Shown here: positions 49,701 through 55,700 of the stretch, in pieces | Numbering within the stretch: position 1 is the stretch's first letter | How the letters are laid out: the number at the start of each line of letters is the position of its first letter | Program-made: the position numbers | Assembly: GCF_017348835.2 (NCBI RefSeq) | Contig: NZ_CP072315.1 | DNA from: Escherichia coli | GTDB lineage: Bacteria; Pseudomonadota; Gammaproteobacteria; Enterobacterales; Enterobacteriaceae | DNA length: 64,000 bases | Direction: 5' to 3' (one strand)

Positions 49701-52700
49701 GGCTCGATAGCGTTACCGGAGAGATTTGATCTTTTCTCTGTAACTCGCAATACTGTTTATACATACAGTATGAGAATTCGAGTGTAGCTATGTCTGTTAT
49801 CCTTGAGCACATTAGCAACAAGCCTTACGAAATGGCACCTTTTTTCAGTGATTTACTGAGCTGTGGAGTGATGAGTCCGTGCGCCGGGCATGAAGATAAT
49901 GAATTAAATTTGCATGAATATGTAGTCCGTAACCGCCCCTCAACCTTCTTTGTCAGGGCGGCGGGCCTCAGTATGATCAATGCCGGTATCAATGATGGCG
50001 CTATTCTGGTTGTGGATCGGTCTTTAACGGCACGACACGGCTCTATCGTCGTTGCGCTGGTGGATGGAGAGTTCACGGTAAAGATCTTACACACGTATCC
50101 TGAGCTGCTTTTGATGCCTTCTAATCCAGCCTATAAGCCGATACGTGTAAATCCCGAATCCCTTGAGATATGGGGCGTCGTCACCTTTGCACTGAATCAG
50201 TTTAGCCATGTACATGCACGTTGATATTAACGGGGCCTATGCGGCATTTGAGTGTGCGATGGATCCCAAGCTGGCAAAAAAGCCGCTCATCATAGCCAGC
50301 AATAACGATTCGTCCGTCATTGCAATGAATAAACTGGCTAAAAGCGTTGGTATTAAGCGTGGGACCCCAATTTTTAAGTGCAGGGATTTGATTCAGCAAC
50401 ACCAGATCGAAGTCCGGAGCTCTAACTTTACTTTGTATGAAGACTACTCAAATCGCTTCCATGAAACGCTGGAAAGCTTCGCGCCTCAATCGAGTCGATA
50501 TAGCATAGATGAAAATTTCATGTTATTGAAAAACATGAACAAGATAATAGATTATGAAGATTACGGCCGGTTGATCAGAAGTACACTTCTTCATAATCTG
50601 TCCCTTACCTGTGGTGTGGGGTGTTCAAGCACCAAAACCCTGGCTAAATTATGCACCTATGCGAGCAAACGATGGGCAGCTACAGGCGGGGTTGTAGTTT
50701 TGACTGATCAGGCCAGGATCAGGAAGCTCCTGGGCCTTATCAGTACCAGAGAAATATGGGGTATTGGTCAAAAGATCAGTGAACGCCTGTCGGCTTTCGG
50801 GATCATCACTGCCGGTGATTTTTATAATAGCGACGTTCGCTTTTTACGTAAAAGCTTTGGCGTTGAAATCGAGCGTACCTGGCGGGAACTGCATGGCGAA
50901 CCATGTTTCCGGCTGCATGAATCCCCTCCTGTCCGGCAACAGATTATCGTTTCCAGAAGTTTTGGTCAGCGCCTTAATGAGATAGGCAAGCTACATGAGG
51001 CAGTTTCATTTTTTACCGCCCGGGCGGCAGAGCAGCTGCGCAAGGATGGCTCGTGGACCCGTCAAATCACAGTCTTCATTCAGAGCAGCAATTATGCGCA
51101 AGGTGAAAACCGCTACAGCAATTGTGGTATCGAGCCGCTTACCGCTACACAGGACACCCGCGATCTGGTTGATGCAGCCATGACCATCCTGAACCGCATT
51201 TACAAACCCGGGATAGCGTATGCGAAAGCTGGGGTAATGCTCTCCGCTATGACTGACGGCACAGAGCAACTCAGCCTGTTTGATGAGCGCCCGGCCAGGC
51301 CTGGCAGTCAGGCACTGATGAAAGTTATGGACCGGTTCAATAAAGAAAAGCGCGGAGCTCTGTTTTTGCTGGGGGAAGGCATTCAACAGGATTTTCGTAT
51401 GAAACAGGCCATGCTATCACCGAGATATACGACCCGCTGGGATGAATTACTCGTTGTAAAAGCGTAGCGGCCATGACCGGCATGGCCGTACTCATCAAAA
51501 GTGAAAGTAACTTTAGGCCCCGCGAGCTTTTTCGATTGCGCCCTGCAAAGTTGCTGCGTCCATAGCCCCGGGGATAAATGTGGTAGTCGCCGCATTCGGC
51601 TTTTTCATATTCATAATGATGAAGCCGGGTGTGCCGGTGATCCCAAGCGCTTCGCCCAGCTGCATGTTGCCGGAGATCACGTTTTCATATCGGTTTTTTT
51701 CCCTGTCAGAAAACGTGCTGTTAAACCCTGACTTATCCACCACAGTATTAAAGTCGCTGAGTTCGAATTTGCGTTGAGAGGTCATGAAGGTATGAGCCAC
51801 AGCCATCAGGTTGTTGTGGTATTTACGATAGGCTTCAGCACCGAAATTCTGATAGACGTGCAGACCCGTAGCGGCCCCCATGGCAGATACAGGTTTTGAA
51901 CCGGCAAAAATCGGGAATTCTTTAAAGAAGAATTTTACATCTTTGCTCTGATTCATTACCGATTCAACAACAGGTGTAACCCGCATGCAGTAAATACACT
52001 GATAGTCGAAGAACTCGATTACCGCGACGTCGGCGTCATCCGGGCCGATGTTTGGCGTCTCCTTGGTATCCAGCAGAGCTGGCGCATATGGAATTATTCG
52101 TTCCACTGAGGCACTTACGTTCTGATTTTCCAGCGCCTTACCTGCTTCCACTAAATAATGGGGATTTTTTACCAGGTAAGTAGCGGCAATTTTGCCAATT
52201 TCTTCCTCACTGAGCACCTTCGGTTTAAAATAAGTTGCCGCGATTAACGCCGAGGCAGCGGTAGCAATTACCGCAGAAATTAAAATCGTGGCCATCGGTT
52301 TTAAATAAAATTCTTTAGACATAGCTACCTTTATGCTTTTCAGCCTGTTAGTTATTAACCTGCGATGGATTATACTGGCCCGGTAAATCGGAATTATTCG
52401 TGAAACAATGCTTTTTGGAGATTAAAGGATGATTAGGCAGGGCTTTATACTCACAACCGCAATGCTTTTGAGTGGTTGTGGATATCATTTCGCAAACCAG
52501 GTAGATGCGTACGATCTAATGCCTCGTCCTGTTACAAATAAAAGGTTTCAGATAGTCCCTCCGGACGAAAGTATTCAGTCCAGAATGTTTTCAGGCCGTT
52601 TTGCTGATGGATTAGCAAAAAAAGGAGTCATTATTTCCACTCACCAGCCAGATTATGTGCTCAGGTTCCGAATGAGCAGCTCACAGGAGAACATGCAGTA

Positions 52701-55700
52701 TAGCGAGCAGCTTCTTACTGGGGTGACAGGCTACGTTGTAGATAAAAAGACAACGAGAACTGACAAGCATGGCGAATCGCATACTGACTATGACTACAGG
52801 CCGGTCGATGGGGTAATAGGCACTGAGACGATGTCGCAGATGCACTATATGCGACAGCTGGATGTCGAGGTATACCCGTCAGCGAAAGGAGCAAAGCAGG
52901 TTCTGAAAGTGAGTATGCAAAGCAATGCACCTGTGCCGTCAGACAGCATTGCTTATTCAGCAATGATCGACGCCTTTACTGATAAATTTGATGCGCCGCT
53001 GCGTTCCGGAAATTATGTTGCAGTGATCCCCTGGAACTGAAAGCAGACGGCGGGAAGAGAATGTTCAAAAGTGACTTTTGGACACGCACATAAACGTGGC
53101 TATCGCCCTCCCCCATTAAAATCATAAAGTCGGTAAAGATCGCCCATCGTGATGGAATTGGGCTTATTAATGATTAGATACTGTAACTGTTCTTTATGTT
53201 GAGTACTGGCGGCTGCATTCATAAGCACTTCCAGGTAGAACTTGTAGCCTATGCTTCGCTCTGAATACATATACTGGAACTGCATCAGTAAAATGCCTGA
53301 CATAACATACAACAGCAGCAGACTGAGTAACACAGTGCTATCAGGCTGTTCCAGTGCCATACTGACATACCCTGAACCCAGAATGCACAGAAGCCAACCC
53401 GTCATTAGAGCAGGCACCCTACGACTCAGACGTTCATAACAACGTTTTATTACGGGATCCCGGAGATACTTTTTGTCAGGTATCCCCGTTGCCCTGATGA
53501 CGAAGTTACTGAGTATCGACATCTTTTTTCCTTCTGGACGCTCTCAGTCAATAAATCAGGCCAGGCGCTCATTGAAAGCTACCACGAGCTGCGAATCGGG
53601 ATTTTTTACCAGTTCGGGCCGGATAACTTTTAGTTGCCTCGTTGGGGCGAGCTCATCTGTAGGCCTGATGGTGGTATTACCCGGCCCCTTGCGGGTACTG
53701 TCGGTGTTTACCTTGAGCTTTTTATTTCCCAGGTAGCTTTCCATCTTTTTAGAGATGGTGTCACCTGTGGTCGCAACACCAGAGAGTTCCTTTAGTTGTT
53801 CACCTTGATCCATTTGTACCGATGACATCAGAAATACGATTCCTGGATCGTTTTCCGTTCCACAGGCTCCGTACTGACATTGTGCAGCGAAAACGGGCTG
53901 TACACCTACAGCAACCAGCATTAACGTACTCAGTAAAGTAGATTTCATACACACCTCTTACAGTCGGAAAAGTTACTTTTGCGCAGCGCCCATTTGGGTC
54001 ACCAGGTTTTCCGGGCTCAGCCACCCCGTAAATAACTGCGGTTTGCCGCTTAGTGTCACCATGGTAGGAGTACCTTGCAGCGGGATTGTTGAGGCCACCT
54101 GGAAATGCGATTTGATAATGTTTAAGCAAGCCTCATCAGGACGTCCTTCCGGGATAGTTGAAACCGGATTCATCGCTGCATCCAGAGCTTCGTTTGGCTT
54201 TGCTGAACACCAGATTTTGGCCATGTTCCCGGCTACTACCGAGTTCAGTCCTGCACGTGGGAATGCAAGAAACTTAATCGAAATACCGGCATCAAGATAA
54301 GACTTCAGATCATGATGCAGTTTTTGGCAGTATCCACAGGTTATATCGGTAAAGATAGCAAGCCGGTATTTTTCGTTTGGTGATTTGTAGTCGATGGATT
54401 TTGTTTTGGATGCGAATTCCCGGACGCCCATTAAAATGGCCTGCTCAGTGGTGTTTACCACATCTTTACCTTTCACGTGGAATAAGCTTCCGGTAAAAAT
54501 GTAATCTCCGTCTTTGCTCACGTAACTTACCCCCTCCCTGGAAATCACCGTAAAAATATCTTTTACTGGCGAGGGTTCGACGTGCTCGATTGAAAGCCCA
54601 ATGGCTTTGAGCTTATCCCGGGCTGCATCTGGCAGTACCATTGTATTAACCGGCTCGGCATTCATCGTGAAGGCGGTACTTAATGAAAGAAGTAATACCG
54701 ATGCCTTAATAATTTTTTTCATTTATGCTCCTTGAATCGAGCACTAATATTATCACGCCCAAAAATTCCAGAATTTTGCTTAAACGCTTAAATCAACGGG
54801 TAAAGCCGAAAGAAAGTCGATAGATATATGGGAGAATAGATAAAACGTAGATTCAGTGGAGAAATCGTTGTGTTTACACCACCAGCAGATGATGTGAAAC
54901 CTATTCCCGTTCCTGATGAGATTTACACTCAGTGCATTACGGATGCCGCCCGCTTCTTCGGAATTGATGCCGAACTGGTTTTTACGTTGTTTGACAATGA
55001 AGGCGGTAAGGTTGGTACTTTCAGCAGGAATACTAACGGCACTTATGATATTGGCCCGATGCAGATCAACTCATCCAATCTGCCTGAAATAAAAAAGCAT
55101 TTCCCGACTGTAACGTGGCGGGTTCTGGCTTACGATGCTTGCGCTAGTTTCTGGGTTGGAACATGGTGGCTCTACAGAAAAATTGTTGATCGCAAGGGCA
55201 ATGTGTTTGAAGGGATTGCAGATTACAACAGCAAAACCCCAAAGGTACGTGCAAAGTACATATTTAACTTCATGGTAAAGTACAATCGCCGGATCCAGCA
55301 GCGTAACGGGATGGGTGAGCTTTATCAATGGACCCAACAACCTCCTCGATACAATGGCCATATAGCTAAAAATGTCCCGGAGCAAAACCCGACTCCTGTT
55401 GTTAAATAAATTCAACCTGATATTACAGAAGATCATCGAGTAGCTTGGGTACCCCCCCGCAAAAAATTCGCATAGACTCAGGGGTAATAAATTGTCTTTT
55501 TCTGCAAGAAATATATTTAAGATTCTCTCTTCTTTCTTGATGCAGAAAAGCCCTCTTCATGAAGAAGTATGTGTTCCTGAAGAAACAACAGCTGGTTTAT
55601 GGGGCCCTCTCCCTGATTCGCATGTCGTGCTTTTCTTAGATTTCGATGGGGTTTGTCACAGGTGCAAAAATGAAACCTTTGAGCGAATGCCATTGGTGGA

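What the first reader, a model, noticed from the sequence alone, without database searches (positions are those of the whole stretch)
51513..54722. Paired periplasmic disulfide-bond proteins inside the transfer region
A DsbA-like (CIYC) and a DsbC-like (CGYC) protein flank three small exported or membrane ORFs and are followed by a lytic transglycosylase. A plasmid-encoded oxidative-folding module probably supports pilus or secretion assembly, and the small ORFs between them are unstudied candidates for accessory pilus proteins.
Basis: inference. Interest (0 to 1): 0.25.

Follow-up and report, generated by a model that had tools for sequence, protein, structure and literature searches.

The report
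IncHI plasmid disulfide-folding gene cassette
This is the well-conserved, already annotated backbone cassette of IncHI resistance plasmids that supplies its own periplasmic disulfide-bond enzymes and a cell-wall-cutting enzyme next to the mating-apparatus genes; it is ordinary, except that three small conserved genes inside it remain unexplained.

Summary
Window 51513-55409 is IncHI2 plasmid backbone, 100% identical to hundreds of sequenced plasmids. It also occurs in the same gene order in IncHI1 R27 (R0130-R0135) and in more distant relatives.

The CGYC protein is a true DsbC-type dimeric isomerase. Its R27 homologue (84% identical) is, by inference from numbering and a secondary source, the DsbC(R27) already tested experimentally. 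The "DsbA-like" CIYC protein is not a classical DsbA. Its best solved relative is Salmonella BcfH (E 1.5e-35), a trimeric BcfH/ScsC-type enzyme that is both oxidase and isomerase.

The three small ORFs are real genes (dN/dS 0.12-0.23, conserved order), but none looks like a pilus protein:
- An outer-membrane lipoprotein with a PelC/LptE/TraT-like fold, on the opposite strand.
- An inner-membrane protein with both ends predicted in the cytoplasm.
- A predicted-disordered exported protein with an invariant C-x4-C.

The cassette lies at the edge of Tra1, between trhG and umuDC. In R27 the transglycosylase and the DsbA-family gene are co-regulated with transfer genes.

Best reading: a partly host-redundant oxidative-folding and wall-remodelling accessory set for the type IV secretion apparatus. 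It is already known, and interest is low.

The parts
51513..52322 (-). DsbA-family protein of the BcfH/ScsC type (269 aa, active site CIYC at 109-112, Thr-Pro loop 'GITGTPGF'); homologue of R27 R0135
   Evidence: Pfam DSBA 72 bits. Best solved relative is Salmonella BcfH 7JVE, E 1.5e-35 and 32% identity over 229 aa, with the match covering the N-terminal helical region. Next come the ScsC proteins 4XVW, 7RGV and 4GXZ. Weak ScsC_N hit at residues 40-67, E 0.011. 75% identical to the R27 protein, dN/dS 0.06.
52323..52428 (.). 106-bp divergent intergenic region between the DsbA-family gene and the lipoprotein gene (presumed divergent promoters)
   Evidence: Sequence read. A GGAG/AAGGA ribosome-binding site lies ahead of the ATG at 52429. 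No sigma-70 consensus match was found.
52429..53040 (+). Outer-membrane-type lipoprotein (203 aa; lipobox LLSG|C17, Gly at +2); homologue of R27 R0134
53100..53522 (-). Small inner-membrane protein (140 aa, two hydrophobic helices, both ends predicted cytoplasmic); homologue of R27 R0133
   Evidence: Alignment A5 has invariant motifs: G-x-P-D-x-x-Y-x-x-x-P-x-I at the N-terminus and K-x-Q...DLY-x-L-x-x-F at the C-terminus. No Cys is conserved. dN/dS 0.18. No Pfam or NCBIfam family. Topology is inferred from charge distribution only.
53556..53948 (-). Small exported protein (130 aa from Met3). It has a signal peptide ending VFA|AQ, an invariant C-x4-C at mature residues 3 and 8, and a conserved C-terminal motif. 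Homologue of R27 R0132.
   Evidence: Alignments A2 and A4: only five columns are invariant, and two of them are the Cys pair. Only 15 relatives among 1.84 billion representatives. AF2 pLDDT 56, pTM 0.16, so predicted disordered. dN/dS 0.23. It follows the DsbC-like gene in every relative examined.
53973..54722 (-). DsbC-type disulfide isomerase (249 aa; signal peptide, DsbC_N dimerisation domain, CGYC at 129-132, Thr-Pro loop, second Cys pair 172/199); homologue of R27 R0131, which is inferred to be DsbC(R27)
   Evidence: Pfam DsbC_N 51.6 bits and Thioredoxin_2 59.8 bits. PDB 4NPB E 1.2e-43 and 1EEJ E 8.4e-37. NCBIfam DsbC 178 bits, below the 215 cutoff. 84% identical to the R27 protein, dN/dS 0.07.
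54723..54869 (.). 147-bp divergent intergenic region between the DsbC-like operon and the transglycosylase gene
   Evidence: Sequence read. No sigma-70 consensus match was found.
54870..55409 (+). Specialised lytic transglycosylase (179 aa, TrbN/IagB-like, two conserved Cys at 22 and 91, no signal peptide as encoded); homologue of R27 R0130
   Evidence: Pfam SLT 23 bits; NCBIfam TrbN 81.7 bits and IagB 50.5 bits. An in-frame stop lies 10 codons upstream, and no frame encodes a hydrophobic leader. dN/dS 0.03-0.07.
55492..56058 (+). HAD_SAK_2-domain protein; a conserved neighbour (R27 R0129) whose role is unknown
   Evidence: Pfam PF18143 E 7e-20. Present beside the SLT gene in IncHI1 and IncHI2. 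R0129 is induced 3.8-fold at 25 C in R27.
57636..61589 (-). trhG (TraG_N mating-pair-formation protein, 1317 aa); context gene and candidate substrate with four conserved Cys at 164, 180, 190 and 249
   Evidence: Annotation of the identical plasmid; Cys positions.
61598..63013 (-). trhH (TraH homologue, six Cys in the mature part); context gene and candidate substrate
   Evidence: Annotation (coordinates converted with offset 38999); translation.
63003..64000 (-). trhF (TraF-type thioredoxin-fold protein with CQFC); its 5' end is cut off by the end of the window
   Evidence: Annotation; translation of the full gene from L001.

Best explanation
The block is the IncHI backbone accessory cassette R0130-R0135. 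It is a plasmid-borne set for oxidative folding in the periplasm and for cell-wall remodelling, and it helps assemble the F-like (MPF_F) type IV secretion and H-pilus apparatus.

**Proposed roles**
- The DsbC-type dimer (CGYC) would be exported by Sec and kept reduced by the host DsbD. It would reshuffle wrong disulfides in Cys-rich mating-pair-formation proteins such as TrhH, TrhG, TrhN and TrhU.
- The BcfH/ScsC-type protein (CIYC) would oligomerise through its N-terminal helix. It would both introduce and isomerise disulfides, as BcfH does for Bcf fimbriae.
- The divergently transcribed TrbN-like transglycosylase would open the peptidoglycan locally.
- Together these functions would make assembly less dependent on the Dsb capacity of whichever host the plasmid enters. 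They are therefore partly redundant with host DsbC.
- The three small conserved genes belong to the same unit, but their roles are not established.

**Shown here:** domain identities, active-site motifs, purifying selection and strict synteny.

**Taken from the literature on R27 homologues:** the DsbC phenotype and the co-regulation with tra genes.

**Inferred:** the substrates, the redox partners, the oligomeric state and any role of the small genes.
For: - **Identity and distribution.** The region is 100% identical to more than 500 IncHI2 plasmids, and 934 of 1011 matching records carry at least 80% of it. The same gene order occurs in IncHI1 R27, in pECO-109b and in distant relatives L007 and L010. 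In those relatives the small exported protein is only about 30% identical (identities in alignment A4; loci).
- **Position.** The cassette is always next to TraF-TraH-TraG.
- **DsbC features.** DsbC_N, CGYC, the Thr-Pro loop and the second disulfide are all present.
- **BcfH/ScsC relationship.** 7JVE E 1.5e-35 with the N-terminal region aligned, and a Thr-Pro loop. BcfH is described as trimeric, with oxidase plus isomerase activity serving fimbrial biogenesis (PMC8405906 and PMC11653150).
- **Selection.** dN/dS is 0.03-0.23 for all six genes.
- **Operon structure.** Gaps in dsbC-exp132-tm140 are 18-33 nt, and the last two genes overlap by 4 nt in L010.
- **Literature.** R27 dsbC deletion lowers transfer about 10^4-fold only in dsbC-null hosts (PMC10838148). 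R0129, R0130 and R0135 are induced 3-4-fold at 25 C; R0130 and R0135 are also derepressed in an htdA mutant (PMC7366339).
- **Candidate substrates.** These carry conserved Cys: TrhG four, TrhH six, SLT two, exp132 two.
Against: - No experiment here or in the papers I could read links the DsbA-family protein or any of the three small genes to transfer. The Rts1 paper states that the function of R0135 is unknown.
- The primary paper on DsbC(R27), Elton et al. 2005, was not available. Equating its DsbC with R0131 is my inference from gene numbering and from how the Rts1 paper treats R0135.
- The cassette was not among the genes classed as tra in R27 (they are called 'non-tra' in PMC7366339).
- A Citrobacter IncHI-like plasmid has lost exp132 through the DsbA-family gene to an IS3 insertion, so those genes are dispensable for plasmid survival.
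- The transglycosylase has no signal peptide in IncHI1 and IncHI2, which is awkward for a periplasmic role.
- IncHI plasmids already carry two other thioredoxin-fold proteins, HtdT and TrhF, so the need for two more is unexplained.
Confidence: 0.7

Rival explanations
1. Envelope stress or copper defence rather than conjugation. On this view the BcfH/ScsC-like protein, perhaps with the C-x4-C protein as a thiol or metal-binding partner, repairs copper- or oxidant-damaged periplasmic proteins of the host. ScsC does this in Salmonella, Proteus and Caulobacter.
For: - ScsC proteins are the next-best solved relatives after BcfH: 4XVW E 1.9e-14, 7RGV, 4GXZ and 6NEN.
- There is a weak ScsC_N match.
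- IncHI2 plasmids are known carriers of copper, silver and tellurite resistance (titles and abstracts listed).
- The small exported protein keeps an invariant Cys pair.
Against: - No ScsA, ScsB or ScsD-like genes lie in the cassette.
- The cassette is equally conserved in R27 and in relatives where it sits between TraG and umuDC. No metal-resistance gene was annotated or called in the stretches examined around it.
- R0135 follows the HtdA and temperature regulation of tra genes.
- It is always paired with a T4SS-type transglycosylase.
Confidence: 0.1
2. The small genes form a separate envelope function that is merely co-located with the Dsb genes. For example, the lipoprotein with its PelC/TraT/CsgG-like fold could be a ring-forming outer-membrane protein for surface exclusion, mating-pair stabilisation or a conduit, working with the inner-membrane protein.
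For: - The model has an unusually long beta-hairpin, residues 86-150.
- The lipobox with Gly at +2 predicts outer-membrane sorting.
- The lipoprotein has its own strand and its own promoter region.
Against: - The match is to a fold shared by many unrelated lipoproteins, at 9-13% identity and rmsd 3-5.5 A.
- The window protein has no Pfam hit to TraT or DUF4136.
- From my own knowledge, R27 entry exclusion has been assigned to other genes, eexA and eexB in Tra2; I did not check this here.
- The lipoprotein is absent from the Klebsiella variant of the cassette.
- The oligomeric state is untested.
Confidence: 0.12
3. The small ORFs are spurious or decaying reading frames between two real Dsb genes.
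For: - PGAP annotates two of them only as short fragments in many IncHI2 records.
- None has a Pfam or NCBIfam family.
- The exported protein is predicted to be disordered.
Against: - Full-length frames survive across saturated synonymous divergence between IncHI1 and IncHI2, with dN/dS 0.12-0.23.
- Order and orientation are kept in relatives at about 30% identity.
- The lipobox, the Cys pair and the terminal motifs are invariant.
- The lipoprotein gives a confident AF2 model.
Confidence: 0.02

Closest known systems
DsbC(R27) of IncHI1 plasmid R27 (Elton, Holland, Frost and Hazes 2005, J Bacteriol 187:8267); by inference locus R0131
   Same: It is the direct homologue of the window's CGYC protein: 84% identical, same length, same position beside the SLT gene and trhG. 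It is reported to be a putative disulfide isomerase of the transfer system, with a transfer defect seen only in dsbC-null hosts (summarised in PMC10838148).
   Different: The window copy is the IncHI2 allele. I could not read the primary paper. Equating DsbC(R27) with R0131 rather than R0135 is inferred from numbering and from the statement that the function of R0135 is unknown.
Salmonella enterica BcfH (PDB 7JVE; Subedi et al. 2021), a trimeric bifunctional thiol oxidase and disulfide isomerase of the bcf fimbrial operon
   Same: It is the best solved relative of the CIYC protein, E 1.5e-35 and 32% identity over 229 residues, including the N-terminal helical region. Both have an FFDYQC-xx-C active-site context and a G-T-P loop. 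Both are encoded beside the surface-appendage machinery they presumably serve.
   Different: The active-site dipeptide differs: IY here, SW in BcfH. The window protein is plasmid-borne next to a T4SS, not in a chaperone-usher operon. Trimer formation, the trans-proline conformation and dual activity are untested here.
ScsC proteins (Proteus mirabilis 4XVW, Caulobacter 7RGV, Salmonella 4GXZ)
   Same: They share the DsbA-like catalytic domain. The trimeric members also share an N-terminal oligomerisation helix.
   Different: The similarity is weaker, E 1e-10 to 1e-14. No scsABD partners are present, and there is no copper-resistance context in the cassette.
Thioredoxin-fold proteins of other F-like or MOBH transfer systems: F TrbB and TraF, IncA/C DsbP (4ML1), Rts1 Orf206, SXT s054, Legionella DsbA2
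   Same: The logic is the same: a transfer or secretion system brings its own periplasmic CXXC protein. Rts1 Orf206 is reported as a homologue of R0135 and is needed for efficient transfer. [quoted passage not shown]
   Different: DsbP matches the window's DsbC-like protein only at E 3.7e-12. TrbB gives essentially no match (E 0.075). None of these systems is described as having the five-gene arrangement seen here.
Specialised lytic transglycosylases of secretion systems (TrbN of IncP, IagB, VirB1, P19)
   Same: An SLT domain with best NCBIfam matches to TrbN and IagB, located beside T4SS genes.
   Different: The IncHI1 and IncHI2 protein has no signal peptide as encoded, although relatives in L006 and L007 have one. 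From my own knowledge, most described members have one; I did not check this here.
PelC, LptE, DUF4136 and TraT outer-membrane lipoproteins
   Different: The window protein has no detectable sequence-family membership. It carries an extra long beta-hairpin. Its oligomeric state and partners are unknown.

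Membership tests
DsbC-type dimeric disulfide isomerase | N-terminal dimerisation domain (Pfam DsbC_N) | tested here: met
   PF10411 scores 51.6 bits against a cutoff of 25, residues 32-89.
DsbC-type dimeric disulfide isomerase | C-terminal thioredoxin fold with a CXXC active site | tested here: met
   Thioredoxin_2 scores 59.8 bits. CGYC at 129-132 is identical to the motif aligned in the DsbC structures.
DsbC-type dimeric disulfide isomerase | Thr-Pro (cis-proline) loop and a second, structural disulfide in the catalytic domain | tested here: met
   'LQGTPT' aligns with 'IQGTPA'. Cys172 and Cys199 align with the Cys pair of 4NPB and 4I5Q. This is sequence-level evidence only.
DsbC-type dimeric disulfide isomerase | Orthologue-level match to chromosomal DsbC (NCBIfam equivalog NF008129) | tested here: not met
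   178.3 bits against a cutoff of 215. It is a distinct plasmid lineage of the DsbC family, not the host orthologue.
DsbC-type dimeric disulfide isomerase | Isomerase activity and dependence on DsbD | not testable with these tools
   Only second-hand literature on the R27 homologue is available.
Classical monomeric DsbA oxidase | Single DsbA domain directly after the signal peptide, a CPHC-type active site and a Val-cisPro loop | tested here: not met
   - About 65 extra N-terminal residues precede the catalytic domain (Pfam DSBA starts at residue 101).
- The active site is CIYC, and the loop is Thr-Pro.
- Classical DsbA structures match only at E 6e-5 to 1e-4, against 1.5e-35 for BcfH.
BcfH/ScsC-type oligomeric DsbA-like proteins | DsbA-like catalytic domain with CXXC and a Thr-Pro loop | tested here: met
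   Pfam DSBA scores 72 bits. 'FFDYQCIYC' aligns with 'FFDYQCSWC', and 'TGTPGF' with 'SGTPAF' of 7JVE.
BcfH/ScsC-type oligomeric DsbA-like proteins | N-terminal alpha-helical oligomerisation region | tested here: inconclusive
   Residues 37-100 align with the N-terminal region of BcfH. Pfam ScsC_N matches residues 40-67, but below its cutoff: 15.8 bits against 25.8, E 0.011. No structure was predicted for this protein.
BcfH/ScsC-type oligomeric DsbA-like proteins | Trimeric state and dual oxidase plus isomerase activity | not testable with these tools
   This needs SEC-MALS or AUC and enzyme assays.
Specialised lytic transglycosylase of secretion systems (TrbN/VirB1/IagB type) | SLT catalytic domain | tested here: met
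   Pfam SLT scores 23.0 bits against a cutoff of 21.3. TrbN and IagB models match at E 7e-23 and 1.5e-13, both below their equivalog cutoffs. The catalytic Glu was not checked against a reference alignment.
Specialised lytic transglycosylase of secretion systems (TrbN/VirB1/IagB type) | Sec signal peptide for export to the periplasm | tested here: not met
   The protein starts VFTPPADDVKPIPVP. An in-frame stop lies 10 codons upstream, and no frame encodes a leader. Homologues in L006 and L007 do have leaders.
TraT surface-exclusion lipoprotein, or DUF4136/PelC/LptE lipoproteins | Lipoprotein signal peptide with lipobox | tested here: met
   L14-x-G16-C17 is invariant in 14 homologues.
TraT surface-exclusion lipoprotein, or DUF4136/PelC/LptE lipoproteins | Shared fold | tested here: met
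TraT surface-exclusion lipoprotein, or DUF4136/PelC/LptE lipoproteins | Sequence-family membership (Pfam model) | tested here: not met
   The window protein has no Pfam hit even at E up to 10. Only one 51%-identical homologue carries a precomputed PF13590 hit.

The most novel reading that the evidence does not exclude
The strictly syntenic five-gene unit may be one dedicated envelope sub-machine of H-type T4SS. It consists of the SLT gene, the DsbC - C-x4-C disordered protein - inner-membrane protein operon, the PelC/TraT/CsgG-like lipoprotein and the BcfH-like enzyme.

On this reading the invariant C-x4-C protein is a specific redox partner, adaptor or obligate substrate of the plasmid's Dsb enzymes. 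The lipoprotein forms an outer-membrane ring. The cassette may also account for how the signal-less transglycosylase is delivered to the wall.
Probability: 0.15. Interest if true: 0.5.

Novelty: already known. Interest (0 to 1): 0.22.

Why it matters
IncHI1 and IncHI2 plasmids are major carriers of multidrug, colistin (mcr) and metal resistance in Salmonella, E. coli and Enterobacter. Their transfer apparatus is rich in disulfide-bonded proteins, so plasmid-borne folding catalysts could help explain efficient assembly in many hosts and at low temperature. They are also conceivable anti-conjugation targets.

The practical gain from this check is modest:
- It corrects the label of the CIYC protein from DsbA to the BcfH/ScsC type.
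- It shows that public IncHI2 annotations truncate two of the small genes.
- It defines a conserved set of genes of unknown function: the three small genes, homologues of R27 R0132-R0134, plus the R0135-type enzyme. Deletion analysis could settle their roles quickly.

Tried and rejected
- **Primary papers.** I tried to read Elton 2005 (PMC1316991), Hemmis and Schildbach 2013 (PMC3743251), Lawley 2002 (PMC134963) and Premkumar 2014 (PMC3908391). None is held, so experimental claims rest on secondary summaries.
- **HtdT as the DsbA-like protein.** Rejected. htdT is R0027 in Tra2, and it is only 22% identical to the DsbC-like protein.
- **The 140-aa membrane protein as a DsbB/DsbD/ScsB-like redox partner.** Rejected. 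No Cys is conserved across six homologues, and the predicted periplasmic loop is about six residues long.
- **Family searches for the three small proteins.** Pfam to E 10 and NCBIfam to E 1 returned nothing meaningful. Three word-indexed homologue searches and one exhaustive profile search found only a narrow family confined to IncHI-like loci.
- **AF2 model of the exported C-x4-C protein.** Confidence was too low (pLDDT 56), so I ran no fold search on it.
- **AFDB50 fold library.** Not available.
- **Promoter scan.** No sigma-70 consensus sites were found in the cassette, so promoters could not be placed.
- **Plasmid-borne DsbB or DsbD.** I did not scan a whole IncHI plasmid. None is annotated in R27 1-50 kb and 100-140 kb, or in the 29 kb examined around the cassette in an IncHI2 plasmid.

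Full report
**What is in the sequence**

- 51513-52322(-): a 269-aa protein with CIYC.
- 53973-54722(-): a 249-aa protein with CGYC.
- Three ORFs lie between them: 52429-53040(+), 53100-53522(-) and 53556-53954(-).
- 54870-55409(+): an SLT-domain ORF.

Pfam gives DSBA (E 6.5e-20) and Thioredoxin_4 for the first protein. It gives DsbC_N (E 7.4e-14) plus Thioredoxin_2 (E 3.7e-16) for the second, and SLT (E 6e-5) for the last.

Four details need correction:
- One small ORF is on the other strand.
- The transglycosylase lies outside the stated interval and is transcribed divergently from the DsbC-like gene.
- The 132-aa ORF most likely starts at its third codon.
- The block lies at the edge of the transfer region, not inside it. 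The order is umuD-umuC | cassette | HAD | HNH | trhG-trhH-trhF.

**Where it comes from**

The 5.2 kb around the finding is 100% identical to more than 500 plasmids typed IncHI2/MOBH/MPF_F, and 934 of 1011 matching records carry at least 80% of it.

The same genes occur in the same order and orientation in:
- the IncHI1 reference plasmid R27 and another IncHI1 plasmid, at about 73% nucleotide identity;
- pECO-109b;
- more distant elements from a genome assembly and from metagenomes, loci L007, L010 and L012. There the small exported protein is only about 30% identical (identities in alignment A4; loci).

In all of these the block sits directly beyond TraF-TraH-TraG, and in L007 and L010 umuDC again follows it.

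A Klebsiella IncHI1B/FIB-type plasmid has a variant arrangement: SLT, then divergently DsbC - two small proteins - a 318-aa DsbA-family protein, all on one strand, with no lipoprotein.

By position in R27, and consistent with the labels in a transcriptome paper, the genes are:
- R0129: HAD
- R0130: SLT, labelled 'bfpH/trbN-like'
- R0131: DsbC-like
- R0132-R0134: the three small genes
- R0135: labelled 'dsbA, outer membrane protein'

**The DsbC-like protein**

It has a hydrophobic leader, a DsbC_N dimerisation domain, CGYC, a G-T-P loop and a second Cys pair that aligns with the structural disulfide of solved DsbC proteins. Matches are 4NPB E 1.2e-43 and E. coli 1EEJ E 8.4e-37.

It falls short of the NCBIfam equivalog cutoff for chromosomal DsbC, 178 against 215 bits. 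It is thus a plasmid lineage of the DsbC family, not the host orthologue. It is only distantly related to the IncA/C plasmid isomerase DsbP (E 3.7e-12) and to R27 HtdT (22% identity).

**The 'DsbA-like' protein**

- The best solved relative is Salmonella BcfH (7JVE, E 1.5e-35, 32% identity over 229 residues). The alignment starts at residue 37 and so includes the N-terminal region ahead of the catalytic domain.
- Next come the ScsC proteins of Proteus, Caulobacter and Salmonella, and Wolbachia DsbA2.
- Classical DsbA structures match only at E about 1e-4.
- There is a weak, sub-threshold ScsC_N match at residues 40-67.
- The loop before the conserved proline is Thr-Pro, as in isomerases and BcfH, not Val-Pro.

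BcfH is described as a trimer held by its N-terminal helix. [quoted passage not shown] I therefore file the CIYC protein as BcfH/ScsC-type. Its oligomeric state and activities remain untested.

**The three small genes**

All three are real. Their reading frames stay full-length between IncHI1 and IncHI2, where synonymous sites are saturated. Between R27 and pECO-109b, dN/dS is 0.12, 0.18 and 0.23, against 0.06-0.07 for the two Dsb genes and the SLT gene.

*Lipoprotein (203 aa).*
- It has an invariant lipobox (L-x-G-C17), with Gly at +2.
- AF2 gives a confident model, pLDDT 85.
- The model also has an unusually long beta-hairpin.

*Membrane protein (140 aa).*
- It has two hydrophobic helices.
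- Its basic N-terminus and its C-terminus carry the only invariant motifs.
- No Cys is conserved, so it is not a DsbB- or DsbD-like redox partner.

*Exported protein (130 aa).*
- It has a signal peptide and an invariant C-x4-C at mature positions 3 and 8. That pair makes up two of only five invariant columns.
- It has a conserved C-terminal motif.
- It has only 15 relatives among 1.84 billion representative proteins.
- It is predicted to be disordered, pLDDT 56.
- It follows the DsbC-like gene in every relative, and in L010 it overlaps the next gene by 4 nt. This argues for a dsbC-exp-tm operon.

None of these features suggests a pilin or a pilus-tip protein.

**How it most likely works**

The experimental link comes from the literature.
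- The Rts1 deletion study summarises Elton et al. 2005. Deletion of R27 dsbC lowered transfer about 10^4-fold, but only in a dsbC-null host, which implies redundancy with host DsbC. The same paper states that the function of R0135 is unknown. From this and the gene numbering I infer that DsbC(R27) is R0131, the homologue of the window's CGYC protein.
- The R27 transcriptome study reports R0129, R0130 and R0135 induced 3-4-fold at the transfer-permissive 25 C. It also reports bfpH (R0130) and dsbA (R0135) derepressed in an htdA mutant and induced under all conditions that promote conjugation.
- Candidate substrates are at hand. TrhH has six Cys in its mature part, TrhG has four conserved Cys, and the SLT and the small exported protein each have a conserved pair.

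My best explanation (confidence 0.7) is a plasmid-borne cassette for oxidative folding and cell-wall remodelling. It supports assembly of the H-type T4SS and buffers the plasmid against differences in host Dsb capacity. The domain assignments, conservation and synteny are shown here. The phenotype and regulation are taken from papers on the R27 homologues. The substrates, redox partners and any role of the small genes are inference.

**Rivals**

- *Scs-like copper or redox defence (0.10).* It is suggested by the ScsC similarity and the metal-resistance cargo of IncHI2 plasmids. Against it are the absence of ScsABD partners, the constant position next to TraG and a T4SS-type transglycosylase, and the tra-like regulation.
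- *A separate function for the lipoprotein and small proteins, such as exclusion or an outer-membrane ring (0.12).* It rests only on a widely shared fold.
- *Spurious ORFs (0.02).* This is refuted by the conservation data.

**Comparison with what is known, and novelty**

The sequence is an annotated backbone segment of a very common plasmid family. One of its enzymes has been studied experimentally in R27, and plasmid-borne thioredoxin-fold proteins are a recognised feature of F-like transfer systems: TrbB, DsbP, Rts1 Orf206 and SXT s054. I therefore rate it 'already known'.

What I did not find stated in the papers I could search:
- the BcfH/ScsC-type assignment of the R0135 family;
- the recognition that R0130-R0135 form a strictly syntenic unit across distant relatives;
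- the features of the three small proteins.

The most novel reading not excluded is that the unit is one dedicated envelope sub-machine in which the C-x4-C protein is a specific partner of the plasmid Dsb enzymes (probability about 0.15).

**Limits**

- The key primary papers were not available.
- No signal-peptide or topology predictor was available, so export and topology calls rest on reading the sequences.
- The AFDB library was unavailable.
- No promoters could be placed.

Noticed in passing
window 54723-55409; also L003 18194-18856, L006 9613-10233, L007 6460-7038, L010 6548-7084: The transglycosylase of IncHI1, IncHI2 and L010 has no signal peptide as encoded. It starts VFTPPADDVKPIPVP, with an in-frame stop 10 codons upstream in the window. 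Homologues in L006 and L007 carry a typical leader exactly where the IncHI protein begins. The gene is nonetheless under strong purifying selection (dN/dS 0.03-0.07) and keeps two conserved Cys. Its route to the periplasm is unexplained.
   Followed up: partly
window 52429-53040 and 53100-53522 (L001 13694-14041 and 14101-14361): RefSeq/PGAP annotation of many IncHI2 plasmids calls only C-terminal fragments of the lipoprotein (116 aa) and the membrane protein (87 aa). The full 203-aa and 140-aa frames are intact in the window, are annotated in IncHI1 records, and are supported by conservation.
   Followed up: yes
window 56166-57455 (-): A 429-aa HNH_2-domain endonuclease gene sits between the HAD gene and trhG in IncHI2. 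It is absent from that position in IncHI1 R27, pSE81-1705-1 and pECO-109b, so it looks like a lineage-specific insertion.
   Followed up: partly
window 51400-56200: The simple sigma-70 consensus scan found no promoter-like sites in 4.8 kb, against 8.3 +/- 3.0 in shuffled sequence. This holds despite two divergent intergenic regions that must contain promoters. It would fit activator-dependent (TrhR/TrhY-type) or otherwise non-consensus promoters, but it could also be chance.
   Followed up: no
L005 (NZ_AP028318.1) 7704-9739: In a Citrobacter freundii IncHI1B-type plasmid an IS3-family element abuts the DsbC-like gene. The small exported protein, the membrane protein, the lipoprotein and the DsbA-family gene are all missing. 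This is a natural variant lacking four of the six cassette genes.
   Followed up: no
L013 (NZ_MH287084.1) 4738-5435: In pSDE-SvHI2 (and NZ_CP050131) an IS1 copy is inserted between the SLT and HAD genes. The Dsb cassette itself is left intact.
   Followed up: partly
L006 (NZ_CP142972.1) 7052-10233: A Klebsiella IncHI1B/FIB-type plasmid carries a rearranged version: the DsbC-like gene, a 103-aa exported C-x4-C protein, an unrelated 113-aa single-helix protein and a 318-aa DsbA-family protein (CHFC), all on one strand. There is no lipoprotein.
   Followed up: partly
window 48473-48829 (-) and 48979-49596 (-): Two conserved hypothetical genes lie upstream of umuD: a 118-aa protein with a signal-peptide-like N-terminus and a 205-aa protein. 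Neither has a Pfam match. Both are also present in IncHI1.
   Followed up: no
window 47311-48033 (-) and upstream to about 39000 (L001 1-9016): An IS26 transposase gene marks the boundary between the IncHI2 backbone and a GC-rich resistance region. In the identical plasmid pSTM6-275 that region carries tet(A), a class 1 integron with dfrA12-aadA2, qacEdelta1 and sul1.
   Followed up: no
L014 (R27) 32115-32867 and L001 24004-25050: IncHI plasmids encode four exported thioredoxin-fold CXXC proteins in all: HtdT (CDGC, Tra2), TrhF (CQFC, Tra1), the DsbC-like protein and the BcfH-like protein. Why four are needed is not explained.
   Followed up: partly
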